Assembly: GCA_963815115.1 (NCBI GenBank)
Contig: CAWFFN010000012.1
Span: forward strand, 543,260-607,259
Source of the DNA: an uncultured delta proteobacterium
GTDB lineage: Bacteria; Desulfobacterota; Binatia; DP-6
Length of the DNA stretch: 64,000 nt
Direction of reading: 5' to 3'
Shown here: one piece after another, positions 23,019 to 50,310 of the stretch
Layout: every line of letters begins with the position of its first letter
How positions within the stretch are numbered: the first letter of the stretch is position 1
Made by a program: the position numbers and the translations under genes
The notes under the pieces: model-generated
What the model was told of the DNA's origin: nothing
Database searches by the model: none
The model's input: only the letters and a program-made list of their open reading frames with translations

Positions 23019-23166
23019 GGCCGGAGTCCTCCTCGCGGTTGGTCGTCGGTGGTGTTCGGATGCCCGAAGCAGACTGCGGCGTCTCACCCTGGGGGCGTCG
23101 AAGGCCGCCGTTTCTGGGCCTCGTCAAGGACCGGTCGGATCAATGAACCTCCTCCGAAAGGGGAAC

Positions 23167-23208
23167 GTGACAACGGTGGGAACATGGGTGTGACGCGGCT
23201 GGGAACAT
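23167..23208 (-). promoter_or_regulatory. ATGTTCCC-N5-TGTCAC motif (two to three copies) upstream of the 22152..23018 gene
   Basis: On the sense (minus) strand: ATGTTCCCaccgtTGTCAC at 23185-23167, ATGTTCCCagccgcgTCACA at 23208-23189, and a further GATGTTCC at 23220-23214. Confidence 0.45.
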
Positions 23209-23668
23209 CACCGGAACATCACCGGGGGCTGAGGATGGCGCTTGTCCGGTCCCGGCCCTGCCGGTCCCCGCCCGGCGCAACCGTGCCCCACGGACTGCGC
23301 TGTCCTACAGCGCGGCCCCGAAGCGGCCGGAGGCGGTCGAGGCGGTGCAGGTCTTGCCGAGGCGCCCCGTCACGTGCTGCCGCAGGTCGCTTGCGCGGGG
23401 AAGATAGAGCTTTCAAGGGCCGATTCGGCCCTCGCGCCTTCTACCAGCCCCCGTCGCTCTGTAACGACGTGTGGGGTGTCCCGTGTTCCTCGGAGCGCTC
23501 CGCCGAGACGACACCCAAGGGACGCCCTAGTGTCGCGTCGAGGACAAGTCCGCTACGAAATGGGCTACGGAACGGTTCATCGCCGCGCGATAGCTTGCGG
23601 GTGCCTCCGCCGCACACCCGGGAGGGGTCTCGCGATCGCCGGGCCGAGTGTCCGTGGCCTGGGCGGTG

Positions 23669-23710
23669 ATGTTCCCTTCCGTGTCACATGCATGTTCCCT
23701 GCGCTGTCAC
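23669..23710 (+). promoter_or_regulatory. tandem ATGTTCCC-N5-TGTCAC motif (x2, 23-nt register) upstream of the haloperoxidase-like gene
   Basis: gATGTTCCCttccgTGTCACatgcATGTTCCCtgcgcTGTCAC, 25 nt before the ATG at 23735. Confidence 0.45.
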
Positions 23711-23734
23711 GGTTCCATGGCGAAGGGAGAAACC

Positions 23735-25075: not shown

Positions 25076-25213
25076 ACAGACGCAGTCGAGATGAAGGGAG
25101 CCGGGCCCGCGGTGGGGCCCGGCTCGCCCTCCGTTGACAGGCCACGTCAGCGATGCAGTGACGGGAGGCTCCGGTGAGCACGTCAGCCCGTGTAGAGAGG
25201 CGTGATCGCGGGT

Positions 25214-25780
25214 TCAACCTGCTCGTCGCGGCAGGAGCGAGCGGGACCACACGCGACTCGATCTCCGGCTGCCGGCGCTCGTCGAGCACCCGGCGCAGTG
25301 GCGTGCGCCGCGCGACGACCTGAGCTTGCTGCTCCGCGCCGTGACGAAGATCTTCGCAGTCCTCCTGATCAGGTCGGCCACACTCCTCAGATCGTTGTTC
25401 TCCATGAACGAGCGGCCGAGCATCAGCACGCGCCTGGTGCGCGCGCGGACGACGAAGAAGCCGCTCTCGGGCACCAGGCCGTTCTAGCCGCGAGACAGCA
25501 GCAGGTACTTGCCGCCCAGGCCGCGATCGGGGCCGGGCAGCCGAAATCGATGACCCAGCGCCATCAGAAATCGTCGATCGTGCCGAGCGTATCGGGCGGC
25601 GTTTCGAGCATCATCGGCCCCTTGCTCAGGTCGATGACGCCGACGAAATAGCGTGTCCGCGTTCGCCGTCAGGAACAGCGACTTGGCATGGATCAGCTCG
25701 GAGAAGATGAGGATATCGCTATCCTTCACGCCGGCGTCGCCGAAACCTTTGTGAACGGCTGCCGCGTTGACGCCCTGCAT
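25214..25780 (-). pseudogene. phospholipase-D-like (HKD) gene fragments in two frames
   Basis: ...IHAKSLFLTANAD... is HxK-like and ...MLGRSFMENNDLRS... resembles GSANxDxRS. The pieces are short, interrupted and in different frames. Confidence 0.3.
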
Positions 25781-25990
25781 AGCTGCTCGGCGCTGGGCGC
25801 GACTGCCCTCGGTGACGTGCTACAGCGCGGCGACGGCGGCAACGACTATCGCGGAGGTGGGGTGCGGTGCTGCCGAGCTGTACACCGAGCGCCTGGTCAC
25901 CACTCAGGGTGACCGACCGATAGCGGCCGTGCTGTTCGGTTCGGCGACCCGACGACCGGTACTCCTCCTTCCTTCTGGGCCCGCGCGACG

Positions 25991-26032
25991 ATGTTCCCTG
26001 TCGCGTTCCATGCATGTTCCCTTGGTTGTCAC
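25991..26032 (+). promoter_or_regulatory. ATGTTCCC ... ATGCATGTTCCC-N5-TGTCAC motif upstream of the 26237 gene
   Basis: gATGTTCCCtgtcgcGTTCCatgcATGTTCCCttggtTGTCAC, same orientation and register as the 23669 copy. Confidence 0.45.
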
Positions 26033-26236
26033 ACCTCCATCTCGGGGCCGGCGGGCCCGTCCAGGATGCACCGACGGCACCCTCGTCCAGAAGTTCGCAT
26101 GCCCAATAGAGGCCGTCGGCCGGCTGTTACGGGAGATCCCCCCAAAAGGAAGGTGCCACATGAATCGGACGCTTTGCAGCCGCCATCCTGCTTCGCTCAG
26201 AATATCCGCATATCCGCCCGCCGGATTTCGGCGGCC

Positions 26237-27069
26237 ATGGTGCCCGGCTCTCTCCGCCGCCTCGCCTGGCTCGTTCCCCTCTGCGCCCTGATCGGCTCCG
26301 CTGGAGCGGCGGGCGCAGGCACCCCCGCGCAGACGTGTGCCGCCGCGAAGCTGAAGGCGGCGGGCACGGAAATCGGGGGCGAGATGGGCTGCTACGGGAA
26401 GGCGAAGCAGGCGGGCGTTGCCGTCGATGGGGGCTGTCTCTCGAGGCAACGGATGAAGGCGGACAGGCGGATCAACTCGCTTGACGGCGCCTGCTCCGGC
26501 ACGGCGGCGGCCATCGACGCGGCCGTCGATAATTGCGTGGCCGCGTTCCTCAGCGACGACCCCGGCAACGGGGTGTGCCCGGCGGCGAGCGCGCAGAAGA
26601 TCGGCAAGGGCGGGAAGGCGGAACTCGCGTGTCAGGCGAAGGAAGTCTTGAGGCCGGGCATGTTCGCGGCGTGTGATGAGAAAGCCGACGGCAAGACGGG
26701 CGCGGGCCTAGAGAACGCGGGCGGCTGCGTGAATCCGACGGCCGTCCTCACGGACATCGACAACTGCAACACCGCCATTGACGCCATCATCGAGCAGACG
26801 ACGACCACCACCACCGAGCGACGACCACCAGCGAGCAGACGACCACCACCGAGCAGACGACCACCACCACCATCCCGTCCCCCTGCACTAGTAGTTCCGG
26901 TGGTAGTCCCTGCGATGCTTCTTGCCCTGGCTCTGTTTGCGCCCCGGAGTCGCCGCCTCCCACGGGGCATGGGCATCGCTGTCCATCGCCCCCCCAGCAC
27001 CTTAGCCCCGGGGATGCCTGCGTAGATGCAGACATCTGCGATTATGTTGAGTGCCAGCTCGGACGGTGA
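26237..27069 (+). CDS. secreted Cys-rich protein with an (EQTTTT)4 linker; frameshifted inside the linker repeat (likely pseudogene or assembly indel)
   Basis: Signal peptide MVPGSLRRLAWLVPLCALIGSAGAAGA, then a K/A-rich paired-Cys helical domain. At about 26819, gagcGacgacc replaces the expected gagcAGacgacc. After the shift the frame reads QTTTSEQTTTTEQTTTTTIPSPCTSSSGGSPCDASCPGSVCAP...CVDADICDYVECQLGR* with a stop at 27067-27069. Confidence 0.55.
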
Positions 27070-28282
27070 CTGTGGCTCGGGCAAGGTCTGCTTGAGGCCC
27101 TTTCCCGTCCCCTTCGGCAGCTGCAATGGTCCAGTTACAACGTGCTGCTCCTCATGCGCATCCTATTCTTGCTTGATTTCCCAGGCGCCCGCGTGCGGCG
27201 GCACGTGCCCGAGCGGACAGGTCTGCGCGGTGACTCCGGTGACTCATGCGTCCTGGCGTCCGACCAACACGTGGACTTCCTCACCACGTGGGGCAGCCCG
27301 GGCAGCGTGTGACGGACAGTTCAGCGGGCAGTTCTGCGGCAGCCCATGGCGTCGCCGCGGATGCGAGCGGGCAGGTCTTCGTGGCAGACTCCGGGAACAT
27401 CCGCATCCAGAAGTGCACTGCATCGTGCCCGTTCGTCACCAAGTGGGGCAGCTGCGGGCAGCGGGGACGGGCAGTTCAACCACCCGGTGGGGGTCGCCGT
27501 GGATGGGAGCGGGAACGTCTTCGTCGCCGACAATTCGGCAACCACCGCATCCAGAAGTTCGACAACACCGGGACGTTCGTGACCACGTGGGGGAGCGCGG
27601 GCAGCGGGGACGGGCAGTTCATTAACCCGGTGGGGGTCGCCGTGGATGGGAGCGGGAACGTCTTCGTCGCCGACTCGCGCAACAACCGCATCCAGAAGTT
27701 CACGAACACCGGCACCTTCCTCACCACGTGGGGCAGCCTGGGCAGCGGGGACGGGCAGTTCCATACCCCGCAGCGGGGTTGCCGTGGATGGGAGCGGGAA
27801 CGTCTTCGTCGCCGACGTCGCCAACAACCGCATCCAGAAGTTCACGAACACCGGCACGTTCTTGACCAAGTGGGGCAGAATGGGCAGCGGGGACGGGCAG
27901 TTCAATGAGCCCCATTGGCCTCGCCGTGGATGGGAACGGGAACGTCTTCGTCGCCGACACGCAACAACCGCATCCAGAAGTTCACGAACACCGGCACGTT
28001 CTTGACCAAGTGGGGCAGCGCGGGCAGCGGGGACGGGCAGTTCGACCAGTCCCGTCGACGTCGCCGTGGATGGGAGCGGGAACGTCTTCGTCGCCGACTC
28101 CGCCAACAACCGCATCCAGGAGTTCGACGAACACCGGTACCTTCCTCGCCACGCGAGGCTGCCCGGGCAGCGGGGAGGGGCAGTTCAATTTCCCGCACGG
28201 CGTCGCCGTCGGATGCTCCAGCGGAAATGTGTTCGTCGCCGACGAGTTCAACAACCGCATCCAGAAGTTCGCGTGTCCATAG
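27026..28282 (+). pseudogene. NHL-repeat (six-bladed beta-propeller) gene with seven tandem 141-144 nt repeats, about one indel per repeat. Probably the continuation of the 26237 gene.
   Basis: The Cys-rich lead-in (DCGSGKVCLRPFPVPFGSCNGPVTTCC...CGGTCPSGQVCAV) follows the previous stop in another frame. The repeats encode TKWGSxGSGDGQFNxPxGVAVDGSGNVFVADSxNNRIQKFTNTGTFLT but are scattered over six overlapping ORFs in three frames. The last repeat ends ...NNRIQKFACP*. Confidence 0.55.
27281..28282 (+). repeat. 7 tandem DNA repeats (about 141-144 nt) encoding NHL blades
   Basis: Blocks such as ggcagcggggacgggcagttc and gtcgccgtggatgggagcgggaacgtcttcgtcgccgac recur at approximately 27433, 27577, 27721, 27862, 28001 and 28144. 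Confidence 0.75.
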
Positions 28283-28459
28283 TGATAGGCATTGGGCTAC
28301 GTCGCCCAGCGCGAGCAGCTCCTCGCCCCTTCCCGGACCGCTCCGGGTTCGCGGCGTGGGGCTGCAACAGTGCGAGGTGCCTGCGACGTCCCGGGGTGAG
28401 AGGCGACATTCCCGCCCGCCTCGCCGCCGCCGCGGGTGGCTCGCCGCGCGCGGTCGGCC

Positions 28460-38275: not shown

Positions 38276-38382
38276 GTGTAGTCCTCCCTTCGGCGACGAG
38301 GCTACGTCAGCGCGTGCTCTCTGCCTAGCCGGGTCTGCGGGACGCTCGAACCGCGGCGCGACGCCCCCCGTTGACGGGATGC

Positions 38383-39357
38383 ATGGAACATGCGAACGGC
38401 GACGGCGTGCACGGCGCGAGCATCTTCGCCCCCGCCGGCGCTCCGGCTGACGCGATCCGGACGCTATCGCTCCTCGTGTTGGCGATCACCGGCGTCATCT
38501 TCGTGATCGTCGGGGGGTTGCTCGTCTACTGCCTCGTTCGCTACCGACGCCGCCCGGGCGACGACGGACGCGAGCCGCCGCAGGTCTACGGCAGCAATCC
38601 GGTGGAGCTGGCGTGGACCGTCGTCCCGATCCTCATCGTCTTCGTCCTGATCACCACGGCGACGCGCACCACCTTCGAGATCCAGGCCGCCCCGCCGCCC
38701 GCGGATGCCATCCAGGTGCGCGTCGTCGGCCACCAGTGGTGGTGGGAGTTCCAGTATCCTGCGCTCGGGGTGATGACGGCGAACGAGCTGCACATCCCGG
38801 TGAGCGACCCGGCGCGGCCGACCCCGACGTACCTCACCCTCGAGTCGGCCGACGTCGCCCACAGCTTCTGGATCCCCCAGCTTTCCGGCAAGACCGACCT
38901 CATCCCGAATCGCCGTAACGTCATGTGGATGGCGCCCGCGAAGCCCGGTACCTACCTCGGGCAGTGCGCCGAGTTCTGCGGCACCCAGCACGCCAAGATG
39001 CTGCTGCGCGTGGTGGTGCATCCGGCCGACGAGTTCGCTCGCTGGGTACAGGCGCAGAGCCGGCCCGCGGCGAAGCTGCCCCAGGCCGAGGCGGGACGGC
39101 GGCTCTTCGAGACCACGGCCTGCGTCAGCTGCCACACGGTGCGCGGCACCAGTGCCGACGGCCGCTTCGGACCCGACCTGACGCATCTCATGAGCCGCGA
39201 CACGCTCGGTGCGGGCGCGGCGCAGAACGACTCGACCACCCTGCGCGCGTGGGTGGAGGATCCGAGCCGGTTCAAGCCGGGGGTGCTCATGCCGGCGATG
39301 CAGCTCACGCAGCCCGAGCTCGACCAGGTGGTCTCCTACCTGGCCTCGTTGCGCTGA
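38383..39357 (+). CDS. coxB: cytochrome c oxidase subunit II with a fused C-terminal cytochrome c domain (caa3-type)
   Basis: Two N-terminal TM helices, the CuA site (HSFWIP...CAEFCGTQHAKM) and a C-terminal CVSCH haem c motif. ATG at 38383; the ORF track uses TTG at 38371. Confidence 0.85.
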   Translation: MEHANGDGVHGASIFAPAGAPADAIRTLSLLVLAITGVIFVIVGGLLVYCLVRYRRRPGDDGREPPQVYGSNPVELAWTVVPILIVFVLITTATRTTFEIQAAPPPADAIQVRVVGHQWWWEFQYPALGVMTANELHIPVSDPARPTPTYLTLESADVAHSFWIPQLSGKTDLIPNRRNVMWMAPAKPGTYLGQCAEFCGTQHAKMLLRVVVHPADEFARWVQAQSRPAAKLPQAEAGRRLFETTACVSCHTVRGTSADGRFGPDLTHLMSRDTLGAGAAQNDSTTLRAWVEDPSRFKPGVLMPAMQLTQPELDQVVSYLASLR

Positions 39358-39359
39358 CG

Positions 39360-41039
39360 ATGGGCGTCCTCGATCGAGCCGTTCCCGCTGCCGAGCCGGT
39401 CGTCGAGGGGCCGTCGCTCGCCACCCGTCTGCACGGCTGGGTGGTCACGGTCGACCACAAGCGGCTCGGGATCATGTACATCCTCAGCGGCGTCCTCTTC
39501 CTGCTCGTCGCCGGCACGATGGCGACGGTCATCCGGCTGCAGCTCGTGATCCCCAACGCCCAGCTCGTGCCTCCCCAGGTGTTCAACCGCCTGATGACCA
39601 TGCACGGCACGACGATGATCTTCTTCGTCGCCGTCCCGATCCTGTTCGGCTTCGGGAACTACCTGTTCCCGCTCATGCTCGGCGCGCGCGACGTGGCCTT
39701 CCCGCGGCTCAACGCCTTCGGCTTCTGGCTCTTCCTGTTCGGCGGGCTCCTGCTCTACTTCAGCTACGTCGCCGGCGACGGCCTCTATGGCGCGGGCTCG
39801 GCGCCCGACGTCGGCTGGTTCGCCTACGCGCCCCTCACCGAGCGGCCCTTCTCCCGCGGCAGCAGCACCGACTACTGGATCCTGGGCATCGCGCTCGCCG
39901 GGATCGGGACGACCGCGACCGCCGTCAACCTCCTCGCGACGACGGCGTCGATGCGCTGCCGGGGCATGACGCTCGGGCGCATGCCGCTCTTCGTCTGGCT
40001 GGTGCTCGTGGCCGCGGCGATGCTGCTCATCGCCCTGCCTCCGCTCACGGCGGCGCAGGTCATGCTGCTCCTCGACCGCTTCCTGGGCGCGCACTTCTTC
40101 GACACCCAGGCCGGAGGCTCGGCGGTACTCTGGCAGCACTTCTTCTGGCTCTTCGGGCATCCCGAGGTCTACATCCTCGTCCTGCCAGCGTTCGGCATCG
40201 CGTCGGAGATCATTCCGGTGTTCTCACGAAAACCGATCTTCGGTTACCCGATCATGGTTGCCGCGTCGGTTGCGATCGGCACCATCAGCATCTCGGTGTG
40301 GGCCCACCACATGTTCGCCGTCGGCATGGGTCCCGCGGCCAACAGCTTCTTCATCACCTCGACGCTGCTGGTGGCCGTGCCGACGGGCATCAAGCTCTTC
40401 AACTGGCTCGCCACCATGTGGGGCGGGAAGATCCGCTTCGCCACCCCGATGCTCTTCTGCGTCGCCTTCCTCTTCCAGTTCCTCTGTGCCGGTCTCACCG
40501 GCGTCATGCTCGGCGTGGCGCCGTTCGACTGGCAGCTGACGGACTCGTACTTCGTGGTCGCGCACTTCCACTACGTCGTCGTCGGGGCGATCCTCTTCAA
40601 CATCTTCGCCGCCGTCTACTACTGGTTCCCCAAGATCACCGGGCGCCTGATGAGCGAGCGCCTCGGCCGCTGGCATTTCTGGCTGATGGTGGTGGGCTTC
40701 AACCTCACGTTCGGTCCGCTGCACATCGCGGGCATCCTCGGCATGCCCCGGCGCATCTATACCTATGACGCCGGACGGGGCTGGGAGATCTGGAACCAGC
40801 TGGCGTCGCTCGGGGCCCTCATCCAGGCGGCCGCGGTGCTCGTGTTCGCCTGGAACGCGATCGTCTCGCTGCGGCGAGGAGCGATCGCCGGCAACGATCC
40901 GTGGGACGCCTGGACGCTCGAATGGAGCACGACGTCGCCGCCACCGGAGTACAACTTCGCTTCCCTCCCGGAGGTGCGTAGCCGCCGTCCGCTCTGGGAT
41001 CTGAAGCACCCCGACGATCCGGACTGGCCATATGAGTGA
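39360..41039 (+). CDS. coxA: cytochrome c oxidase subunit I
   Basis: 559 aa. WFFGHPEVY-type motifs (LWQHFFWLFGHPEVYILVLPAFG, VWAHHMF, FHYV). Starts 3 nt after the coxB stop. Confidence 0.9.
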   Translation: MGVLDRAVPAAEPVVEGPSLATRLHGWVVTVDHKRLGIMYILSGVLFLLVAGTMATVIRLQLVIPNAQLVPPQVFNRLMTMHGTTMIFFVAVPILFGFGNYLFPLMLGARDVAFPRLNAFGFWLFLFGGLLLYFSYVAGDGLYGAGSAPDVGWFAYAPLTERPFSRGSSTDYWILGIALAGIGTTATAVNLLATTASMRCRGMTLGRMPLFVWLVLVAAAMLLIALPPLTAAQVMLLLDRFLGAHFFDTQAGGSAVLWQHFFWLFGHPEVYILVLPAFGIASEIIPVFSRKPIFGYPIMVAASVAIGTISISVWAHHMFAVGMGPAANSFFITSTLLVAVPTGIKLFNWLATMWGGKIRFATPMLFCVAFLFQFLCAGLTGVMLGVAPFDWQLTDSYFVVAHFHYVVVGAILFNIFAAVYYWFPKITGRLMSERLGRWHFWLMVVGFNLTFGPLHIAGILGMPRRIYTYDAGRGWEIWNQLASLGALIQAAAVLVFAWNAIVSLRRGAIAGNDPWDAWTLEWSTTSPPPEYNFASLPEVRSRRPLWDLKHPDDPDWPYE

Positions 41040-41607
41040 GGAATCGGACGGCTGGACGCTGCCGTCCCGCGGGCGTGCCGGGATGGTCGGGCTCATCATC
41101 ACGGAGGCGGCGTTCTTCGCGATCTTCGTCGTCGCGTACCTGTTCTACGTCGGGAAGAGCGTGAGCGGTCCCACGCCCGCCGCCGTGCTCCACACGCCCG
41201 TCCTGGCGTCGATCCTGCTGCTCTCGAGCAGCTGGACCATCGTGCTCGCCATGCGCGCCCTGCGCGCCGGCGCCACCGGCCGCTTCGCACGCTGGTGGTC
41301 TGCCACCCTCCTGCTCGGCGTGGGCTTTCTCGCGCTGACGGCGCGCGAATGGGCGCGCCTCATCGGCCACGACGGCCTCACCATCGCGACCAACCTCTTC
41401 GGCACCACCTTCTACACCCTGGTGGGCCTTCACGCGCTGCACGTCACCCTGGGCCTGACGCTCATCGCGCTCGTGCTGGCGCTCACGCTGCGCGGGCACG
41501 TCGACGCGCGGCACGCGGAGCGGACCGAGATGCTGTCCTGGTACTGGCACTTCGTCGACGGGGTGTGGGTGATCGTGTTCCTCACGGTCTACGTGGTGGG
41601 GCGGTAG
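41032..41607 (+). CDS. coxC: cytochrome c oxidase subunit III (short form)
   Basis: 191 aa, 5 TM helices, C-terminal HFVDGVWVIVFLTVY motif. Overlaps coxA by 8 nt. Confidence 0.8.
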   Translation: MSEESDGWTLPSRGRAGMVGLIITEAAFFAIFVVAYLFYVGKSVSGPTPAAVLHTPVLASILLLSSSWTIVLAMRALRAGATGRFARWWSATLLLGVGFLALTAREWARLIGHDGLTIATNLFGTTFYTLVGLHALHVTLGLTLIALVLALTLRGHVDARHAERTEMLSWYWHFVDGVWVIVFLTVYVVGR

Positions 41608-41613
41608 GCGGCC

Positions 41614-42426
41614 ATGGCACCGGCCAGCCGCATCGAGGTCCCGGCGCCCACCGCGTGGCCGATGATCGCCGCATTCGGCATCACGCTCGTCTGCGCGGGT
41701 CTGGTGACCGATGCGCTCGTGTCCGTCGTCGGGGTCGTCGCCATGCTGGCCGGCGCGGTCGGCTGGTTCCGCGCCGTCCTGCCGGTGGAGGACTGCGAGT
41801 CGGTGGCGGTCGAGCCCGAGGTCCCGGTCGCGATCGCGCGCAGCGAGGTGACCCATCTCGAGATCGGCGAGGCGGGGCACCGCGCGCGCCTCCCGATCGA
41901 GATCTACCCCTACTCGGCGGGCGTGAAGGGCGGGATCGTCGGCGGCATCGCCATGGCGTTCCTCGCCATGCTCTACGGTGTGCTCTTCCATGGCAGCGTC
42001 TGGTACCCGATCAACCTGCTGGCGGCGGGCACGATGGCCTCGCTCGCGAGCGCCGACACGGCGGAGCTCATGCGATTCAATGCCGGCGCGCTCGTGGTCG
42101 CGGCGGTGATCCACGGCCTGGGGTCGCTGCTGGTCGGGCTGCTCTACGGCGTGCTGCTGCCGATGTTGCCGAGACGTCCGATTCTCTTCGGCGGAATCGT
42201 CGTGCCGGCGCTCTGGACGGGGCTGATCTGGGCGTCCCTCCGCATCGTGAACCCGACCCTCAACGCGCGCATCGACTGGCCGTGGTTCGTGGCCTCGCAG
42301 ATCGCCTTCGGCATCGCCGCCGGGATGGTGGTCGCGCGCTCGGAGAAGATGGCCACCCTCCAGTCTGCCCCGTTCGCGGTGCGCGCGGGGATGGAGTTCC
42401 CGCGCGAGCGGGGCGGGGCATCGTGA
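41614..42426 (+). CDS. unknown polytopic membrane protein embedded in the cox/bc cluster
   Basis: 270 aa, about 6 TM helices, no recognisable motif. GTGA overlap with the next gene. Confidence 0.5.
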   Translation: MAPASRIEVPAPTAWPMIAAFGITLVCAGLVTDALVSVVGVVAMLAGAVGWFRAVLPVEDCESVAVEPEVPVAIARSEVTHLEIGEAGHRARLPIEIYPYSAGVKGGIVGGIAMAFLAMLYGVLFHGSVWYPINLLAAGTMASLASADTAELMRFNAGALVVAAVIHGLGSLLVGLLYGVLLPMLPRRPILFGGIVVPALWTGLIWASLRIVNPTLNARIDWPWFVASQIAFGIAAGMVVARSEKMATLQSAPFAVRAGMEFPRERGGAS

Positions 42427-43097
42427 GACCTGCCGCCGCCGTGCTGCTCGCGGCCGCACTCCTGGCGGCGTGCGACCGGTTGCCCGGCCGGCCGCGCGAG
42501 GCGGACCGGCCTCTGCGCCCGCACGACGTGACCAGCTTCGCGGAGCTCTACGGAGCGAACTGCGCCGGCTGCCACGGATCGAACGGCACGCTCGGCGCGG
42601 CCGCTGCCCTCGCCAACCCCACGTACCTCGCCTGGGTGGACGACGCGACGGTGCGGCGCGTGATCACCGAGGGCATCCCGGGCACGTCCCAGCCCGCCTT
42701 CGCCATCAGCGCGGGGGGATCGCTCACCGACGCCCAGGTCGACGTCCTGGTGCGCGGCATGCGGACGCAGTGGCCGGCGCCGCCGCCGGCCGGCACGTTG
42801 CCGCCGTACGCGGCCGACGGCGGAGGTGACGTCGCGCGCGGCGGAGCGCTGTACGCGCAGCGCTGTGCACTCTGCCACGACCCGGGTGGCAAGGGGTCGC
42901 CGAAGGGTGGCTCCGTGGTCGATCCGGACTACCTCGCGCTGGTGAGCGACCAGGCGCTCCGCACCGCCGTGGTGGCGGGCCGACCCGACCTCGGCATGCC
43001 GGACTGGCGTGGCGCGCCCCCGTGGCCGGCGCTCGCGCCGCAGCAGGTCTCGGACCTGGTCGCATGGATGGCGTCGCATCGGAAGGGAGGAGCATGA
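42423..43097 (+). CDS. dihaem cytochrome c lipoprotein
   Basis: GTG start. Lipobox LLAAC, then two CxxCH motifs (CAGCHG, CALCHD). Confidence 0.75.
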   Translation: MRPAAAVLLAAALLAACDRLPGRPREADRPLRPHDVTSFAELYGANCAGCHGSNGTLGAAAALANPTYLAWVDDATVRRVITEGIPGTSQPAFAISAGGSLTDAQVDVLVRGMRTQWPAPPPAGTLPPYAADGGGDVARGGALYAQRCALCHDPGGKGSPKGGSVVDPDYLALVSDQALRTAVVAGRPDLGMPDWRGAPPWPALAPQQVSDLVAWMASHRKGGA

Positions 43098-43594
43098 GCG
43101 AGGAGGGAGTCAGCCGGCGCGGCGTCCTGCTCACCCTGGGGATCGCCCTCAACGCCGTCGCGGCGGCGCTGCTCGCCGTGCCGCTGCTGGGGTTCATCCT
43201 GTCACCGGCACGACGCTGGTCATGGCAGCGGTGGGTGCCGCTCGGGCCCGTGTCCGACTTTCCGGAGAACCAGACACGGCTCGCCACCTATCGAAACCCG
43301 TTCTCGCGTCCCTGGGACGGCGAGACGGCGAACATCCCGTGCTGGGTGCGGCACGTGTCGGGTGACGAGTTCCTGGTCTTCGCCATCAACTGTACCCATC
43401 TCGGCTGCCCGGTGCGCTGGTTCGAGGGCGCCGGTCTGTTCATGTGCCCGTGTCACGGCGGGGTCTACTACTCCGACGGCGAACGGGCGTCGGGGCCGCC
43501 GCCGCGCGCGCTCTACCGCTACGAGCACAAGCTCGAGAGCGGACAGCTCTGGGTGCTCGGCGGGCAGCTGCCCACGCTGTCGGAGCACGTCTGA
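43094..43594 (+). CDS. Rieske [2Fe-2S] iron-sulfur protein
   Basis: Tat motif SRRGVLL. CTHLGC...CPCHG Rieske boxes. ATGA overlap with the preceding stop. Confidence 0.85.
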   Translation: MSEEGVSRRGVLLTLGIALNAVAAALLAVPLLGFILSPARRWSWQRWVPLGPVSDFPENQTRLATYRNPFSRPWDGETANIPCWVRHVSGDEFLVFAINCTHLGCPVRWFEGAGLFMCPCHGGVYYSDGERASGPPPRALYRYEHKLESGQLWVLGGQLPTLSEHV

Positions 43595-43595
43595 C

Positions 43596-45053
43596 ATGGA
43601 GCCGCTGCGCGCGTTCGCCGACTGGATCGACCAGCGCCTGGGCCTCGGCGAGCCGCTCGCCGAGGTCGCCGGGCACCGTGTCCCGCGCGACACGGCGAGC
43701 TGGTGGTACGTCTTCGGCAGCGGGACGCTCGTCCTCTTCATCATCCAGGTCGTGACCGGCATCTGTCTCGCCACGGTCTACGTTCCCTCGGCCGCCGGCG
43801 CCTGGCAGAGCCTCGAGGTGCTCAACTACGAGCAGCCGCTCGGCTGGTATCTCCGCGCCGTGCACGGCTGGGGCTCGAACTTCATGGTCGCGATGATGAG
43901 CGTCCACGTCGCCCAGGTCTTTCTCTTCGGCGCCTACAAGTATCCGCGCGAGCTCACCTGGATCGCCGGGGTGTTCCTGCTGCTGTGCACGCTCGGCATG
44001 GCGTTCACGGGGCAGGTCCTGCGCTTCGATCAGGACGCCTACTGGGGCCTCGGCATCGGGGCGGCGATCGCGGGGCGGATGCCGCTGCTCGGGCGCGAGG
44101 TCGTCCACCTGCTGCTCGGCGGCCCGATCATCGCGGGCGAGACCCTGTCGCGCTTCTTCACCATGCACGTCTTCGTGGTGCCCGGGCTCCTGATCGCCTT
44201 CGTCCTGGTGCACCTCCTGCTCGTGCTCCGTCTCGGCGTCAACGAGTGGCCCATGCCGGGCCGGGTGGTGAGCCGCGCGACCTACCGCCGCGACTACGAG
44301 GAGCTGGTCAAGCGCGACGGGGTGGCGTTCTTCCCGCACGCAGCGAAGCGCGACATCGTCTTCGCGGGAATCCTGATCTGCGCTGTGCTCGCATGCGCCG
44401 CGATCTTCGGGCCCTTCGGGCCGAACGGCCAGCCCGATCCCACCATCATCCAGACCACGCCGCGCCCGGACTTCTACTTCCTCTCGCTGTTCTCGGTCTT
44501 CGCGCTCCTGCCGCCGTGGACCGAGACCGTCCTCATCCTCACCGCGCCGGTGCTCGGGATCATCGCGCTCTTCGCGCTGCCGTTCATCTCCGGCACCGGC
44601 GAGAAGAGCTGGCTCCGCCGCCCCGTGTCGGTCCTGGGCATCGTGCTCGTCTTCCTGACCCTGGCGACGCTCACCTGGCTCGGGCTCTCCTCGCCGTGGT
44701 CGCCGCACATGGAGGCGTGGAGCGAGGCGCCGACGCCGGTCGAGTACGTGCGCGGCCGCTCGCCGCTCGAGCTGCAGGGTGCGCTCCTGGTGCAGAGCAA
44801 GCAGTGCCGGAACTGCCACGCGCTCGGCGGCGAAGGCGGCCTGCGCGGGCCCGCGCTGGACGACGTCGCCACGCGGCTCACGCGCGACCAGCTGGTGCGT
44901 CAGATCATCCAGGGCGGTGGCAACATGCCGGCGTACGGCAAGAACCTGAGTCCGGCCGAGGTCACGGCGATCGTCGCCTTCCTGCGCACCATGCACCCGC
45001 CGGAGCAGGCGCCGGCGCAAGACGCCTCGCAGCTGCTGCGCTCCGCCCGCTGA
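43596..45053 (+). CDS. cytochrome b with a fused C-terminal monohaem cytochrome c domain
   Basis: 485 aa, about 8 TM helices with the His ligands of the b-type fold ([20 protein letters not shown]), and a C-terminal CRNCH. Confidence 0.85.
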
Positions 45054-45061
45054 CGTTGGTC

Positions 45062-47239
45062 GTGGGTTCCGTGGCGCAGGCGGTTCTCGCGTCGTGGTCG
45101 CTCGCTCCCGGGCTCGCCGCCGTCCTGCTCGTGCTCGCCACGCTCTATGTCCGCGGCTGGGGCGTGTTGCGCCGCCAGATGCCCGAGCGCTTCCCGGCCT
45201 GGCGGCTCGGCTGCTTCCTCGTCGGGCTCGCGACCCTCTACGTGGCCGTGGCCTCGCCGATCGACGCCTTCGCCGGCCTGCTGCTCCAGGTGCACATGCT
45301 CCAGCACCTGCTGCTCATGATGGTCGCGCCCCCGCTGGTCCTCCTCGGGGCGCCGGGAGTGCCGCTGCTGCGCGGGCTGCCGCCCCGCCTGGCGAAGGAC
45401 GCGCTCGGGCCGTTTCTCGCCTGGCCAGCGCTGCGCCGCGTGGCGGCGGCGCTCACCCATCCCGTGGTGTGCTGGTGCGGGCTCGTCGCGGCCACCTGGC
45501 TGTGGCACCTGCCCGCCCTCTACCAGCTCGCGCTCCGCAGCCCCGCCTGGCACGCCGTCGAGCACGCGACCTTCCTGTCGACGGGCCTGCTCTTCTGGTG
45601 GCCGGTGGTGCAGCCGTGGCCGAGCCGCGCTCGCTGGCCGCGCTGGACCATCCCCCTCTACCTCCTCCTCGCCGACGTGCAGAACACGATCTTCTCCGCC
45701 CTGCTCGCGTTCTCCGAGCGCCTCTTCTACCCCGTGTACGCGGGCGTCCCCCGGCTCGGCGGTCTCTCCGCGCTCGACGATCAGGTGGCGGCTGGCGCGC
45801 TCATGTGGGTGCCGGGGTCGATCGTCTTCCTGGTGCCGACCGCGCTGATCACGGCGCGCCTGCTGTCGCCGCAGCCGCCCCCGCTGCCCGCGGCGGCTCG
45901 CCGGAGCGTTCACGTGCAGCGATCGCCCCGCGACGTGCTCCGCATCCCCGTGATCGGACCTGCGCTGCGCCAGCCGCTCGCGCGGCGCGCGGCGCAGGCG
46001 GTGATGCTGCTCCTCGCCGCCGCGGTGGTCGCCGACGGACTGCTCGGACCCGCGATGAGCCCGATGAACCTCGCCGGCGTGCTGCCGTGGACGGGCTGGC
46101 GTGCGCTCACCGTGCTGGCGCTCCTCGTCGCCGGCAACGTCTTCTGCTTCGCCTGTCCCTTCATGCTGCCGCGGGAGCTGGCCCGCCGCATCGCCGCGCC
46201 CGCTCGCCGGCTTCCCCGCCTGCTGCGGACCAAGTGGCTGGCGATCGGACTGCTGATCGCCGGCTTCTGGGTGACGGAGACCTGCGCGCTGTGGGATGGA
46301 CCGCGCGCCACCGCCTGGCTGATCGTCGGGTACTTCGCCGCTGCGACGATCGTCGATTCCACCTGGCGGGGCGCGAGCTTCTGCAAGTACGTCTGCCCGA
46401 TCGGACAGTTCCACTTCGTCAGCTCCCTCGTCTCGCCGCTCCAGGTCCGCGCCCGGGCGCCGGCGGCGTGCGCGTCCTGTACGACCCACGACTGCCTGCG
46501 CGGCAATCCTGCTCGGCGGGGCTGCGAGCTCGACCTCTTCATGCCGCGCAAGGTCGGCAACCTCGACTGCACGTTCTGCCTCGACTGCGTGCATGCCTGC
46601 CCGCACGACAACGTCGGCCTCTTCGTCGCCGCTCCGGGAAGCGATCTCGTGCACGATGCCCGGCGCTCGTCGATCGGGCGGCTCTCGCAACGGCTGGACG
46701 TGGTGGCACTCGCCGTCCTGCTCGTGGTGGCCGCCTTCGTCATGGCGGGCGTGATGGTCGTGCCGGTCTCCGCGCCGTGGCTGCTCGCCTTGCTGGCGGC
46801 TGCGCCGATCGCGGTGGGGGCGCTCGTCCTGGTCGCGCCGCCTCGCCGCGCGCGGGTGAGCCGCTTCGCACTCGCGCTCGTGCCGCTCGGGGTGTCGATG
46901 TGGGCGGCGCACTTCCTCTTCCACCTGCTCACCGGCTGGCACGCCTTCGCCCCCGTCCTGCGGCGCCCGCTGGCCGACCTGGGACTTCTCGATCCGCCGA
47001 GCTGGACGGCCGCGGCGGGCGCGGTCGCGCCCGGCGGCGTGCTCGGGCTCGAGCTGTTGCTGCTCGACCTCGGGCTTCTCCTGACGCTGTGGGTGGTCTG
47101 GCGCGTGGCCCGCGATCGCGGCCCGGGCCCGCTCGCACCGCTCATCCCCTGGGCGAGCGCCGCGACGGCGCTGTGGGCGGCCGGCGTGTGGATCGTCTGC
47201 CAGCCGATGGCGATGCGGGGGATGATGTCGCATCCGTGA
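45062..47239 (+). CDS. single ORF fusing a CtaG/CopD-like caa3 assembly-type membrane domain to a NapH/CcoG-like polyferredoxin membrane domain
   Basis: N-terminal half: [19 protein letters not shown] ... HAVEHATF (CtaG_Cox15/CopD-like). C-terminal half: [30 protein letters not shown] (CxxCxxCxxxCP ferredoxin motifs). No stop between the halves. The start is uncertain (TTG 45056, GTG 45062 or GTG 45071). Confidence 0.55.
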
Positions 47240-47275
47240 GCCCGCGCGCGCTTGCCGGACCGCATCCGACGTGCC

Positions 47276-48247
47276 ATGAGCCGACTCGTCGTGGCGCAGG
47301 CGCGCATCGTCGAGACGACGGTCGACGGCTTCATGGCGCGCAAGCTCGTGTCGCCGAGCGGCACGCTGGACGCGACGTTCGTGGTGGGCGCCGGCATGGT
47401 CGGCAGCTCGCTGCGACACGAGGGGGCGGAGCTGCTCGACCCGCGAGGCGGCGTGACACGTTACGCCGCGCAGGGGGCGACCATGGGCCTTCCGCTGCTG
47501 CACCCCTGGGCGAACCGGCTGGACGGCCTTCGCTACGCCGTCGCCGGGCGGCAGGTCGTCCTCGGCCCCGACTCGGGCGTTCTGCACCTCGACGGCAACG
47601 GCCTGCCCATTCACGGCCTGCTGCCGGGACGCTCGCGCTGGGAGCTGGTCCACGCGGAGGCGACGCCCGCCGCCGCGCGGCTCGAGGCACGTCTGGTGTT
47701 CTCGCCCGACCCCGCGCTGCTTGCGGCCTTCCCGTTTCCGCATCGGCTGCAGCTCGGGCTCTTGCTGCGCGACGACGCGCTCGTGGTCGAGACCACGCTG
47801 GCGGCGGCCGGCGACGTCGCCGTGCCGGTGGCGTTCGGGTTCCATCCCTACCTGCGGTTGCCCGGCGTCCCGCGCGAGCAGTGGACGGTCGAGCTGCCGG
47901 TGCACGAGCAGCTCGTGCTCGACGCGCGCCAGCTTCCCACCGGCGCGCGCGAGGCGGTGCGCATCGATCCGGCACCGCTCGGCGAACGCACCTTCGACGA
48001 CGCCTTCGTCGCGCCGCGCGACGCGGCGCCCTTCGTCGTCGCCGGGGGCGGACGGCGCATCGCGGTGGAGTTCGTGCGCGGCTACACGGTCGCGCAGGTG
48101 TTCACCCCGCCGCGCGCGTCCTTCATCTGCTTCGAGCCCATGACGGCGCCCGCGAACGCGCTCGTGCGCGGCGGACCCGATCTGCGGCTCGTCGAGCCCG
48201 GAGAGCGCTTCACGGCCGCGTTCGCGATCCGTGTCGGGCGCGCCTGA
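47276..48247 (+). CDS. aldose 1-epimerase (galactose mutarotase-like) family protein
   Basis: Motifs of the mutarotase-like fold ([33 protein letters not shown]). ATG at 47276; a TTG at 47252 is possible. Confidence 0.7.
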
Positions 48248-48306: not shown

Positions 48307-48978
48307 ATGGCGGTGTTCGCGCGCAAGCTGAGGGTTCCGTCTGCCGCCGAGGCGCTGCCCGGCCGCACCGAGCGCATGCGCGTGCCGGCCCGGCACTTCG
48401 TTCTGGGCACCCCGCTCGAGCCGCCGTTCCCCGAAGGGCTCGAGCGAGCGGTGTTCGGCATGGGCTGCTTCTGGGGCGCCGAGAAGACGTTCTGGCAGGC
48501 AGACGGTGTGTACACCACCGCGGTGGGATACGCCGCCGGCCACACCCCGAACCCGACCTACGAAGAGGTGTGCTCCGGCCTCACCGGGCACTCCGAGGTC
48601 GTACTCGTGGTCTTCGATCCACGACGCACGAGCTACGGCGAGATGCTTCGCATCTTCTGGGAGCACCACGATCCGACCCAGGGCATGCGACAGGGCAACG
48701 ACGTCGGGACCCAGTACCGCTCCGGCATCTACTGGCACTCCGAAGCGCAGCGCGCAGCGGCCGAGTCGTCGCGCGCCGCGTATCAGCACGCCCTCGCAGC
48801 GAGCCGGTTCGGCACCATCACCACGGAGATCCTGCCTGCCTCCGAGTTCTACTACGCCGAGGACTACCATCAGCAGTACCTGGCGAAGAACCCCGCCGGC
48901 TACTGCGGGCTCGGCGGGACGGGTGTCAGCTGCCCGGTCGGACTCGTGTCTGCGCCCGGCTCGGGCTCGGCGTCCTGA
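48307..48978 (+). CDS. msrA: peptide methionine sulfoxide reductase A
   Basis: The GCFWG active site has Cys, not Sec. GYAGG, QYRSGIY and AEDYHQQYL are present. GGAGG as RBS. Confidence 0.9.
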
Positions 48979-49050
48979 GCCGGACCGCGCTCGCTTGCTT
49001 CGGCACTCCGCGTCCGGCTCATCTCAGAAAACCGCCGGACAGGAGGGGAC

Positions 49051-49683
49051 ATGATCGATCTCTACACATGGACCACGCCGAACGGACGGAAGATCTCCAT
49101 CATGCTCGAGGAGACGGGCCTTCCGTACAAGGTGATCCCGGTCGATCTGGGGAAAGAGGAGCAGATGACCCCGAGCTTCACCGCGCTCAACCCGAACCGC
49201 AAGATACCGACCATCGTCGACCACGACGTCCCGGGCGGTCCGCTCGCGCTGTTCGAGTCGGGCGCGATCCTGATCCACCTGGCCGAGAAGACGGGCCGCT
49301 TCCTGCCCAGGGACGTGCGAGCCCGCGCGCTCACGATGCAGTGGCTGATGTTCCAGATGAGCCAGGTCGGGCCGATGATCGGCCAGGCAGGGCACTTCGT
49401 GAACCAGGCGCCGGAGCGCATCCCCTACGCCATCCAGCGTTTCATCGGCGAGTCCGTGCGGATCCTCGGAGTCCTCGAGACCGCGCTGCGCGACCGAGAG
49501 CATCTCGCCGGGGACTACTCGATCGCGGACATCGCGACCTATCCGTGGGTCACCGCGGCGTGGGGCCCGCTTCAGGCGACCTTGCCCGACGAGATCGGCA
49601 AGCTCGGCGGCGTGAAACGCTGGCTGGACCTGATGGCCGCGCGGCCGGCGGTGCAGCGCGGGATGGCGGTACCGGCCGCCTAG
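49051..49683 (+). CDS. glutathione S-transferase (Nu-class/YfcG-like)
   Basis: KIPTIVDH, ESGAILIHLAEK (G-site), C-terminal H-site helix. CAGGAGGGGAC-ATG RBS. Confidence 0.85.
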   Translation: MIDLYTWTTPNGRKISIMLEETGLPYKVIPVDLGKEEQMTPSFTALNPNRKIPTIVDHDVPGGPLALFESGAILIHLAEKTGRFLPRDVRARALTMQWLMFQMSQVGPMIGQAGHFVNQAPERIPYAIQRFIGESVRILGVLETALRDREHLAGDYSIADIATYPWVTAAWGPLQATLPDEIGKLGGVKRWLDLMAARPAVQRGMAVPAA

Positions 49684-49713
49684 GCGTTGTCGCGTCTCGC
49701 GTGACGGGTGAAG

Positions 49714-49809
49714 TGGCGGAGAAGGGAAGGAGTCGAACCTTCCATCCCGCACCAGGCGGGACATCGCGGTTTTGAAGACCGGTGAGGCCACCGGGCCTCT
49801 TCCTTCTCC
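49714..49809 (-). tRNA. selC: tRNA-Sec (selenocysteine tRNA, anticodon UCA)
   Basis: 96 nt: GGAGAAGG-AA-GAGGCC-CGGT-GGCCTC-ACCGGT-CTTCAAA-ACCGCG-ATG-TCCCGC-CTGGT-GCGGGA-TG-GAAGG-TTCGACT-CCTTC-CCTTCTCC-G-CCA. It has an 8-bp acceptor stem, a 6-bp D-stem with a 4-nt loop, anticodon loop CU-UCA-AA, a long variable arm with a 6-bp stem, a 5-bp T-stem with TTCGA loop (8/5 bacterial Sec architecture), discriminator G and an encoded CCA. The anticodon stem has one C-C mismatch. Confidence 0.7.
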
Positions 49810-49924
49810 ATCCGGGGAACGTCGCGGAGTAGCGTGCCTCCCGGGCGACGGCAAGGCACCCGGTCGCGGTCCGCGACTCTTGCCAGTACCTCGCGGCGAT
49901 GCGGGGAACGATCACGACGTCGAC

Positions 49925-49977: not shown

Positions 49978-50310
49978 ATGATTCCCGAGACCCTCGCACA
50001 GATTGAAGCCCGCGTCCGGCAGGCCGGATCGTTGTCCGAGGACAACAAGGCCGAGTTGCTGAAGTTGCTCGCGGCGCTGAGAACCGAGATTGGTGATCTC
50101 GCCCAGACGAAGAGCGACGAGGCGCACCGGATTGCCGCCATCGCCCGCATCTCGACCGAGGCGGCGATTCACGATCAGACCAATCCCGAATTGGTCAAGC
50201 AGTCGCTGGACCGGCTCGCGTCGACGGTGTCTGAATTCGAGGAGTCACATCCGCGGCTGGTGGAAGTCGTCAACCGTATCGCCACCATGCTCGCGGGCGC
50301 TGGTATCTAG
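49978..50310 (+). CDS. small helical protein, DUF4404-like
   Basis: 110 aa, predicted all-alpha, [10 protein letters not shown]...[14 protein letters not shown] pattern. GC3 typical of this genome. Confidence 0.5.

What the first reader, a model, noticed from the sequence alone, without database searches (positions are those of the whole stretch)
49714..49809. selC (tRNA-Sec) present; no selenoprotein evident in the window
The structure has an 8-bp acceptor, a 6-bp/4-nt D-arm, a UCA anticodon, a long variable arm and discriminator G, which are diagnostic for bacterial tRNA-Sec. This implies selA, selB and selD and at least one selenoprotein elsewhere.

The adjacent MsrA has Cys in its GCFWG active site, so it is not a selenoprotein. 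The anticodon stem carries a C-C mismatch, which is worth verifying.
Basis: partly seen in the sequence, partly recalled or inferred. Interest (0 to 1): 0.5.

Follow-up and report, generated by a model that had tools for sequence, protein, structure and literature searches.

The report
Ordinary bacterial selenocysteine tRNA gene
This is a normal, intact bacterial selenocysteine tRNA gene (selC) on the minus strand of a high-GC soil bacterium, and its odd-looking anticodon stem is a known type of one-base bulge, so the finding is correct but ordinary.

Summary
ARAGORN calls a tRNA-SeC (anticodon UCA) at exactly 49714..49809, on the minus strand. Rfam's tRNA-Sec model scores 65.8 bits against a gathering score of 47. 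The RNA has the canonical bacterial layout: 8-bp acceptor stem, 5-bp T stem, 6-bp D stem with a 4-nt loop, 7-bp variable stem, discriminator G and an encoded CCA.

In 37 distinct relatives, 95.6% of cells are paired and 18 of 32 pairs show compensatory changes.

The reported C-C mismatch is better read as a one-base bulge. In all 15 relatives where this base cannot pair, the next base is a G that can pair with C27. Such bulges are known in bacterial tRNA-Sec (PMC3711452).

The tRNA is 96-100% identical across 14 related contigs, while the flanking DNA is 76-93% identical. This argues that the gene is functional.

The window holds no selA, selB or selD, and no credible in-frame TGA gene. MsrA has Cys in GCFWG. 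Whether the genome has the rest of the selenocysteine machinery cannot be tested here. Novelty and interest are low.

The parts
49714..49809 (-). tRNA-Sec gene (selC), 96 nt including the encoded 3' CCA
   Evidence: ARAGORN calls tRNA-SeC. Rfam RF01852 scores 65.8 bits against a gathering score of 47. It is collinear with E. coli selC, with one gap in the variable loop.
49802..49809 (-). acceptor stem, 5' strand (RNA 1-8, GGAGAAGG); pairs with 49718-49725
   Evidence: Eight Watson-Crick pairs read from the sequence. Across 37 relatives this helix is 98% paired, and 2 pairs show compensatory change.
49784..49799 (-). D arm: 6-bp stem GAGGCC/GGCCUC with 4-nt loop CGGU (RNA 11-26)
   Evidence: The helix is 100% paired in 37 relatives, and 4 of 6 pairs show changes on both sides. 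This arm is the SelA-recognition feature according to PMC7609411.
49764..49783 (-). anticodon arm (RNA 27-46): A27, CCGGU, loop CUUCAAA, ACCG, bulged C44, G45, A46
   Evidence: The Rfam alignment inserts the C. In 15 of 15 variant relatives the base after the non-pairing position is a G that can pair with C28.
49773..49775 (-). anticodon UCA (reads TGA on the + strand)
   Evidence: ARAGORN places the anticodon at RNA position 35. The sequence confirms it.
   Evidence: The closest precedent is the flipped-out U43a in the A. aeolicus tRNA-Sec crystal structure (PMC3711452).
49744..49762 (-). variable (extra) arm: 7-bp stem GUCCCGC/GCGGGAU with 5-nt loop
   Evidence: All 7 pairs show compensatory change in relatives, and the helix is 95.4% paired. 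The MFE fold also predicts it.
49726..49742 (-). T arm: 5-bp stem GAAGG/CCUUC with loop UUCGACU
   Evidence: The helix is 100% paired, and 2 pairs show compensatory change.
49714..49717 (-). discriminator G (49717) and encoded CCA (49714-49716)
   Evidence: Read from the sequence. CCA follows the discriminator in nearly all relatives.
49051..49683 (+). context: glutathione S-transferase gene, convergent with the tRNA, 30 nt from its 3' end
   Evidence: Pfam GST_N and GST_C domains. The gene is present between MsrA and the tRNA in L124 and L131, and next to the tRNA in L123, L128 and L130, whose contigs end before MsrA.
48307..48978 (+). context: MsrA, Cys form ([10 protein letters not shown]), linked to tRNA-Sec throughout this lineage
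   Evidence: Pfam PMSR, E 3.6e-62. Translations. Synteny is seen in L044, L022, L124, L126, L131, L132 and L133.
49978..50310 (+). context: DUF4404 gene, divergent from the tRNA; not shared with any relative
   Evidence: Pfam DUF4404. No tblastn or tblastx match in the related loci.

Best explanation
Window 49714-49809 (minus strand) is a functional bacterial selC gene encoding tRNA-Sec(UCA).

By analogy with the established bacterial pathway, it would work as follows (all steps inferred, none shown here):
1. [quoted passage not shown]
2. SelA converts Ser to Sec on the tRNA, recognising the 6-bp D stem with its 4-nt loop.
3. SelB delivers it to UGA codons that are followed by a SECIS hairpin. 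SelB relies on the 13-bp 8+5 acceptor/T helix, which also keeps EF-Tu off.

The apparent C-C mismatch in the anticodon stem is a single bulged C one position from the 43a bulge known in other bacterial tRNA-Sec. It does not indicate a pseudogene.

What is shown: the sequence, the fold geometry, covariation, and conservation stronger than in the flanks. What is inferred: charging, conversion, decoding, and the presence of selA, selB, selD and selenoprotein genes elsewhere in the genome.
For: - Detection: ARAGORN tRNA-SeC. Rfam tRNA-Sec at 65.8 bits against a gathering score of 47, winning within the tRNA clan.
- Geometry (8/5, 6-bp D stem with 4-nt loop, 7-bp variable stem, G73, CCA) read directly. 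It matches the published definition (PMC7609411; PMC3711452).
- The RNA is collinear with annotated E. coli selC.
- Covariation in 37 distinct relatives: 95.6% of cells paired, against 47-59% when partners are slid. 18 of 32 pairs have changes on both sides, and 0 of 500 shuffles reach the observed values.
- Purifying selection: 14 contigs of the same lineage carry a tRNA that is 96-100% identical, while the flanking DNA is 76-93% identical. ARAGORN calls tRNA-SeC in all 8 that were tested.
- Bulge: in 15 of 15 distinct sequences whose position 43 (C, A or U) cannot pair with C27, position 44 is G. In the 62 standard sequences it is never G.
- More distant relatives with the same acceptor stem have selA (18 loci), selB (12) or selD (8) next to the tRNA. 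This tRNA type therefore belongs to working Sec systems.
Against: - No selA, selB, selD, fdhA or other selenoprotein candidate occurs in the 64 kb or in the short contigs of the closest relatives.
- No sigma-70-like promoter or intrinsic terminator was found around the gene.
- The promoter-like element shared by six relatives is absent upstream of the window's copy.
- The window and six metagenome relatives have A at RNA position 46, which abolishes the A27:U46 pair kept by the other relatives.
- The organism encodes an aa3-type oxidase and looks aerobic. Aerobes are said to retain selenoproteins rarely (PMC13188914).
- The single-sequence MFE fold does not reproduce the D and anticodon arms.
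Confidence: 0.92

Rival explanations
1. It is a relic selC. The lineage has lost the selenocysteine trait, and the tRNA gene persists as an unexpressed or functionless remnant.
For: No sel genes or selenoprotein candidates occur in 64 kb. No promoter consensus was found. Homology to relatives stops exactly at the tRNA 5' end, so the upstream region has been replaced. The gene content looks aerobic.
Against: The tRNA is 96-100% identical in 14 contigs from different organisms whose flanking DNA is only 76-93% identical. A relic would drift. Every stem is intact, differences among relatives are compensatory or fall in loops, and CCA and G73 are retained. tRNA-Sec presence is reported to mark selenoprotein-containing genomes (PMC5330540). 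Sixty-four kilobases is a small fraction of the genome.
Confidence: 0.05
2. It is a tRNA-Sec look-alike: either a SelC*-type tRNA-Cys(UCA) or an allo-tRNA acting as an opal suppressor that inserts Cys or Ser at UGA.
For: Such tRNAs were found in delta-proteobacteria and Acidobacteria, the same broad groups as the MAG labels of the relatives. They can carry a UCA anticodon (PMC5389517).
Against: SelC* tRNA-Cys has discriminator U73 and an 8/4 branch, and allo-tRNAs have a 12-bp 8/4 or 9/3 branch (PMC5389517). Here the branch is 13 bp (8/5) with G73, and all five T-stem pairs are 100% paired in relatives. No selB*/cysS*-like gene lies downstream, and there is no SelB hit in the window.
Confidence: 0.02
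3. It is a misclassified tRNA-Ser or a chance tRNA-like sequence.
For: [quoted passage not shown] No other evidence supports this reading.
Against: The anticodon UCA reads UGA, not a Ser codon. tRNA-Ser has a 7/5 branch and a 4-bp D stem with an 8-11-nt loop (PMC7609411), whereas this RNA has an 8/5 branch and a 6-bp D stem with a 4-nt loop. The Rfam tRNA-Sec model beats the general tRNA model within the clan. The pattern has zero matches in shuffled sequence.
Confidence: 0.01

Closest known systems
Escherichia coli selC (tRNA-Sec UCA, b3658)
   Same: The architecture is the same and the two RNAs are collinear, with one gap in the variable loop: 8-bp acceptor, 2-nt linker, 6-bp D stem with CGGU loop, CUUCAAA anticodon loop, long variable arm, GGUUCGACUCC T arm, then G and CCA.
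   Different: E. coli has an uninterrupted 6-bp anticodon stem (G26-U44, C27-G43). The window RNA has a bulged C before the G that pairs with C27, and A-A at the 26/44 position. In E. coli, selC is an island integration site. Here there is no integrase and no repeat of the tRNA 3' end (Pfam).
Aquifex aeolicus tRNA-Sec (crystal structure PDB 3W3S; PMC3711452)
   Same: It has the 8+5 fold, a 6-bp D stem with a 4-nt loop, and a 6-bp anticodon stem interrupted by a flipped-out bulged nucleotide on the 3' strand (U43a). The authors note that bulges at or near this position are frequent in bacterial tRNA-Sec.
   Different: Here the bulge sits one pair closer to the loop, between the 4th and 5th pair rather than the 5th and 6th. 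The 26:44 pair is A-A in the window but A-U in L044 and L022. The variable stem is 7 bp rather than 9 bp, and there is no D-stem bulge.
tRNA-Sec of uncultured 'delta proteobacterium' MAGs MFD04944.bin.1.34 (L044) and MFD09779.bin.1.362 (L022), and soil metagenome contig Ga0326731_1017693 (L123)
   Same: Identity is 92/93 for L044, 91/93 for L022 and 93/93 for L123, with the same bulged C. MsrA is linked on the 3' side in L044 and L022, and GST adjoins the tRNA in L123.
   Different: RNA position 46 is A in the window but U in L044 and L022. The genes between MsrA and the tRNA differ, and so does everything upstream of the tRNA.
SelC* tRNA-Cys and allo-tRNAs (PMC5389517)
   Same: They also have a long variable arm, an 8-bp acceptor stem, a possible UCA anticodon, and occur in delta-proteobacteria and Acidobacteria.
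   Different: Those have a 12-bp branch (8/4 or 9/3), and SelC* has U73. The window RNA has a 13-bp 8/5 branch with G73.

Membership tests
Bacterial tRNA-Sec (Rfam RF01852; selC) | Covariance-model score at or above the curated gathering score | tested here: met
   65.8 bits against 47, E 3.6e-11, full-length model match. ARAGORN agrees.
Bacterial tRNA-Sec (Rfam RF01852; selC) | UCA anticodon in a 7-nt loop | tested here: met
   The loop is CUUCAAA, with the anticodon at RNA 35-37, window 49775-49773.
Bacterial tRNA-Sec (Rfam RF01852; selC) | 13-bp acceptor/T domain in the bacterial 8+5 arrangement (PMC7609411, PMC3711452) | tested here: met
   There are 8 + 5 Watson-Crick pairs. The helices are 98% and 100% paired in 37 relatives, with compensatory changes.
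Bacterial tRNA-Sec (Rfam RF01852; selC) | 6-bp D stem with 4-nt D loop (the SelA recognition element) | tested here: met
   The stem is GAGGCC/GGCCUC with loop CGGU. It is 100% paired, and 4 of 6 pairs covary.
Bacterial tRNA-Sec (Rfam RF01852; selC) | Long variable arm (6-9-bp stem) and discriminator G73 (SerRS identity) | tested here: met
   The variable stem is 7 bp, and all 7 pairs covary. G lies at 49717, followed by CCA.
Bacterial tRNA-Sec (Rfam RF01852; selC) | Co-occurrence with selA, selB, selD and at least one UGA-Sec gene in the same genome | not testable with these tools
   None occur in the 64-kb window or in the short contigs of the closest relatives. The rest of the genome could not be retrieved. 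More distant relatives do have selA, selB or selD beside the tRNA.
Bacterial tRNA-Sec (Rfam RF01852; selC) | Serylation by SerRS, conversion by SelA, delivery by SelB | not testable with these tools
   These are biochemical properties and are inferred only from the identity elements.
allo-tRNA (PMC5389517) | 12-bp acceptor branch in an 8/4 or 9/3 arrangement | tested here: not met
   The branch is 13 bp (8/5). The fifth T-stem pair, G68:C84, is paired in 37 of 37 relatives.
SelC* tRNA-Cys (PMC5389517) | U73 discriminator, 8/4 branch (often with bulge A51a), and selB*/cysS* downstream | tested here: not met
   The discriminator is G, the branch is 8/5 without a T-stem bulge, and no SelB-like hit occurs in the window.
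tRNA-Ser | 7/5 branch, 4-bp D stem with 8-11-nt loop, and a Ser anticodon | tested here: not met
   The RNA has an 8/5 branch, a 6-bp D stem with a 4-nt loop, and a UCA anticodon.
selC-associated genomic island (as in E. coli) | Integrase gene next to the tRNA 3' end, and a direct repeat of the tRNA 3' end bounding the insert | tested here: not met
   The 26-nt 3' end has no second copy in the window at up to 3 mismatches. No integrase domain appears in the Pfam scans of the main composition-supported ORFs. The gene content between MsrA and the tRNA does vary among relatives.

The most novel reading that the evidence does not exclude
The evidence does not exclude that this aerobic, high-GC soil lineage keeps a strongly conserved tRNA-Sec without the canonical machinery nearby because it serves an unusual purpose. 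Two versions are possible. It could decode a small, still unrecognised selenoproteome in an aerobe. Or the conserved MsrA-(variable slot)-tRNA-Sec linkage, seen in at least 8 contigs, could be a trace of an ancestral Sec-MsrA (GUFWG) that was later converted to Cys. The slot at the tRNA 3' end would then act as an integrase-free insertion hot spot.
Probability: 0.05. Interest if true: 0.4.

Novelty: already known. Interest (0 to 1): 0.1.

Why it matters
The gene flags the source organism as a likely selenocysteine user. This is an uncultured soil lineage whose nearest database relatives are MAGs labelled 'delta proteobacterium', with Binatia MAGs next. Annotators should therefore expect at least one gene, most often fdhA, with an in-frame UGA that standard gene callers will truncate. 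Beyond that annotation hint, nothing here challenges current knowledge. The geometry, the identity elements and even the anticodon-stem bulge all have published precedents.

Tried and rejected
1. The first genome-collection scan returned nothing because my pattern had one N too many. The corrected pattern was checked on the window and then found 119 loci.
2. Recovering the source genome failed. Exact-protein look-ups for GST, DUF4404, the transglutaminase-like protein, the ATP-grasp protein and ORF 41614-42426 were not on record. Only COX3 matched: a 1.1-kb Logan contig from run ERR11523651, plus an unread 0.2-1 Mb contig. selA, selB and selD could therefore not be sought genome-wide.
3. In-frame TGA candidates were examined and rejected. 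TGA 17488 is the SDR stop, followed by the antisense frame of the minus-strand gene 17601-18995. TGA 47237 is the stop of a CtaG-domain ORF that happens to be in frame with the epimerase. TGA 48976 is the MsrA stop, in frame with GST. The others lack a coding partner and a redox motif.
4. The genomic-island idea was rejected. There is no repeat of the tRNA 3' end, and no integrase domain in the Pfam scans of the main composition-supported ORFs.
5. A link between the neighbouring GST and E. coli yibF, the GST-like gene next to selA, was rejected. YibF has no tblastn hit in the window.
6. The promoter and terminator scan found nothing usable. Its one 'terminator' is the D arm read on the wrong strand.
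7. Single-sequence folding recovers the acceptor, variable and T arms but mispairs the D and anticodon arms. The comparative structure was used instead.
8. MsrA as a selenoprotein was rejected. It has Cys in the window, L044 and L022.

Full report
**1. Is it there?**

Yes. ARAGORN reports exactly one tRNA in the 64-kb window: tRNA-SeC, anticodon tca, at 49714..49809. A scan of the whole window against Rfam at gathering thresholds gives a single hit, RF01852 (tRNA-Sec). It scores 65.8 bits against a gathering score of 47, with E 3.6e-11 and a full-length model match. Because overlapping matches within the tRNA clan are reduced to the best one, tRNA-Sec outscored the general tRNA model. A degenerate full-length pattern matches once in the window and never in 100 shuffles.

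**2. Anatomy**

The RNA, read from the reverse complement, is:

GGAGAAGG | AA | GAGGCC CGGU GGCCUC | A | CCGGU CUUCAAA ACCG C G | AU | GUCCCGC CUGGU GCGGGAU | G | GAAGG UUCGACU CCUUC | CCUUCUCC | G | CCA

- The acceptor stem is 8 bp and the T stem is 5 bp, giving the bacterial 13-bp '8+5' branch.
- The D stem is 6 bp with a 4-nt loop.
- The anticodon is UCA, at window 49775-49773.
- The variable stem is 7 bp.
- The discriminator is G, and CCA is encoded.

These are the published defining features of bacterial tRNA-Sec (PMC7609411; PMC3711452). The RNA is collinear with annotated E. coli selC, with a single gap in the variable loop.

**3. Relatives and covariation**

They contain 77 distinct sequences when the window's own is included.

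- The nearest are two MAGs labelled 'uncultured delta proteobacterium': L044 at 92/93 and L022 at 91/93.
- Next come two Binatia MAGs (85/93 and 84/93). The remaining loci are labelled Binatia, delta proteobacterium, Acidobacteriota and related groups.
- A metagenome scan added 12 short contigs of the same lineage. One of them, L123, carries an identical tRNA.

I counted pairs for the cloverleaf on a 37-sequence alignment:

- 95.6% of cells form standard pairs, against 47-59% when the 3' partners are slid by 1-3 columns.
- 18 of 32 pairs show changes on both sides.
- None of 500 shuffles reaches the observed values.
- All 7 variable-stem pairs and 4 of 6 D-stem pairs covary.

The pattern used for retrieval fixed some acceptor and loop positions. 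The evidence therefore comes from the D, anticodon, variable and T stems, which were left free.

**4. The 'C-C mismatch'**

The juxtaposition is real, but it is better read as a bulge. The 77 distinct sequences fall into two groups:

- 62 have a standard 27:43 pair (C:G in 60, G·U wobble in 2). In these, position 44 is U or C and never G.
- 15 have a base at 43 that cannot pair with C27: C in nine, A in five and U in one. In all 15, position 44 is G.

The pairing G has therefore moved one position 3', leaving a single unpaired base. This is also how the Rfam alignment treats it.

For the sequences with A at position 26, which include the window's lineage, the bulge model adds C27:G and usually A26:U as well. 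The mismatch model adds nothing. For the group with C at position 26, a C26:G44 pair flanking a mismatch is an equally good reading.

The window has A at RNA position 46, so the outermost pair is A-A. The same A occurs in 6 of the 12 metagenome relatives and U in the other 6. It is therefore a sub-lineage trait, not a sequencing error.

The feature has precedent. The A. aeolicus tRNA-Sec crystal structure shows a 6-bp anticodon stem with a flipped-out bulge, U43a. Its authors state that bulges at or near this position are frequently seen in bacterial tRNA-Sec (PMC3711452). A 43a bulge is also common in tRNA-Sec with a 12-bp branch (PMC5330540).

**5. Is it functional?**

Function is inferred, but strongly. 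Across 14 contigs of the lineage, the tRNA is 96-100% identical to the window's. The adjacent coding DNA (epimerase, MsrA, GST) is 76-93% identical. ARAGORN calls tRNA-SeC in all eight relatives tested. A decaying relic would not be kept this clean.

More distant relatives with the same acceptor stem have selA (18 loci), selB (12) or selD (8) within a few kb of the tRNA. This tRNA type therefore belongs to working Sec systems.

The points against are as follows:

- No sigma-70-like promoter or intrinsic terminator was found.
- A TTGCAC-N18-TAAGTT element shared by six relatives just upstream of the tRNA is missing from the window.
- Homology to every relative, even L123, stops exactly at the tRNA 5' end.

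**6. Context and selenoproteins**

The window is about 70% G+C, so genes were called by third-position GC and named with Pfam. The genes around the tRNA are:

| Coordinates | Strand | Gene |
|---|---|---|
| 38371-41607 | + | aa3-type oxidase (COX2, COX1, COX3) |
| 43022-45053 | + | Rieske protein and cytochrome b/c |
| 45053-47239 | + | CtaG-domain protein |
| 47252-48247 | + | aldose 1-epimerase |
| 48307-48978 | + | MsrA |
| 49051-49683 | + | GST |
| 49714-49809 | - | tRNA-Sec |
| 49978-50310 | + | DUF4404 |

- MsrA has Cys in [10 protein letters not shown] in the window and in L044 and L022. It is therefore not the GUFWG selenoprotein form described in PMC13188914.
- E. coli SelA, SelB and SelD give no tblastn hit in the window at E ≤ 1e-4, nor in the closest relatives' contigs at E ≤ 1e-3.
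- Two scans for TGA codons with coding-like composition on both sides found only ordinary gene ends and no CxxU/UxxC context.

Whether the genome holds the machinery could not be tested. Attempts to recover the source contig by exact-protein look-up failed, apart from one 1.1-kb Logan contig. [quoted passage not shown]

**7. Rivals**

- A relic gene is unlikely, given the conservation.
- SelC* tRNA-Cys and allo-tRNAs are excluded on their own defining features (U73; a 12-bp 8/4 or 9/3 branch; PMC5389517), because this RNA has G73 and an 8/5 branch.
- tRNA-Ser is excluded by the anticodon, the D arm and the acceptor length.
- A selC-linked genomic island is not supported, because there is no repeat of the tRNA 3' end and no integrase. 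However, the slot between MsrA and the tRNA 3' end holds no gene in L126, one or more genes in L022, L044, L132 and L133, and a single GST gene in the window, L124 and L131.

**8. Verdict**

This is a correct but ordinary annotation: a canonical bacterial selC gene in an uncultured, apparently aerobic, high-GC soil bacterium. The one feature flagged as odd is a known kind of anticodon-stem bulge. Novelty: already known. Interest: low. The useful practical consequence is to look for a UGA-containing fdhA or similar gene elsewhere in the assembly.

Noticed in passing
window 49810 (tRNA 5' end) and 48978-49714: Homology to all close relatives stops exactly at the tRNA 5' end, even for L123, which is 93% identical over GST and the tRNA. 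The slot between MsrA and the tRNA 3' end also varies. L126 has no gene there. The window, L124 and L131 have one gene (GST); GST also adjoins the tRNA in L123, L128 and L130, whose contigs end before MsrA. L044, L132 and L133 have a gap of about 2-2.6 kb (three genes in L044). L022 has a pyruvate-kinase-like gene. No integrase or att repeat is present.
   Followed up: partly
L122, L124, L125, L129, L131, L133 (about 10-50 nt upstream of their tRNA-Sec): These six relatives share a promoter-like element, TTGCAC-N18-TAAGTT, just upstream of the tRNA. The window lacks it and has only a weak TTGCCG-N17-TACTCC, roughly 17-45 nt upstream of the tRNA 5' end (about window 49826-49854).
   Followed up: partly
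window 45053-47239 (+): This ORF has a Caa3_CtaG domain (aa 31-270) followed by about 450 residues with a strong coding signature but no Pfam hit. Its TGA stop at 47237 is in frame with the aldose-epimerase ORF 12 nt downstream.
   Followed up: partly
window 21066-28400: A HepT-like ribonuclease toxin domain lies at 21066-21875 (+), at the edge of a patch of lower G+C (about 0.66, against about 0.70 elsewhere). The ORFs in this patch have no Pfam hit. It may be foreign DNA or a toxin-antitoxin or defence region.
   Followed up: no
window 12636-14112 (+): Adjacent ComA (phosphosulfolactate synthase) and ComB-like (2-phosphosulfolactate phosphatase) genes are followed by glycosyltransferase, ATP-grasp and SDR genes. 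This sulfolactate-related cluster sits in what looks like a polysaccharide or glycolipid locus.
   Followed up: no
window 48976 and 49051: The MsrA stop codon (TGA at 48976) is in the same frame as the GST start 25 codons downstream. There is no redox motif and no conserved read-through in L044, so this is judged to be chance.
   Followed up: yes
L128 (metagenome contig Ga0066388_100033616), tRNA 353-448: [quoted passage not shown] It may be a sequencing error or a damaged copy.
   Followed up: no
L120 (E. coli K-12 3756000-3762000): In E. coli, selA lies directly next to yibF, a GST-like gene, which is reminiscent of the GST next to tRNA-Sec here. However, YibF has no tblastn hit in the window, so this is a coincidence of family rather than orthology.
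   Followed up: yes
window 38371-45053: An aa3-type cytochrome c oxidase operon (COX2, COX1, COX3) plus a Rieske protein and a cytochrome b/c fusion indicate aerobic respiration. This is a less common background for selenocysteine use. The exact COX3 protein occurs in a Logan assembly of run ERR11523651.
   Followed up: partly
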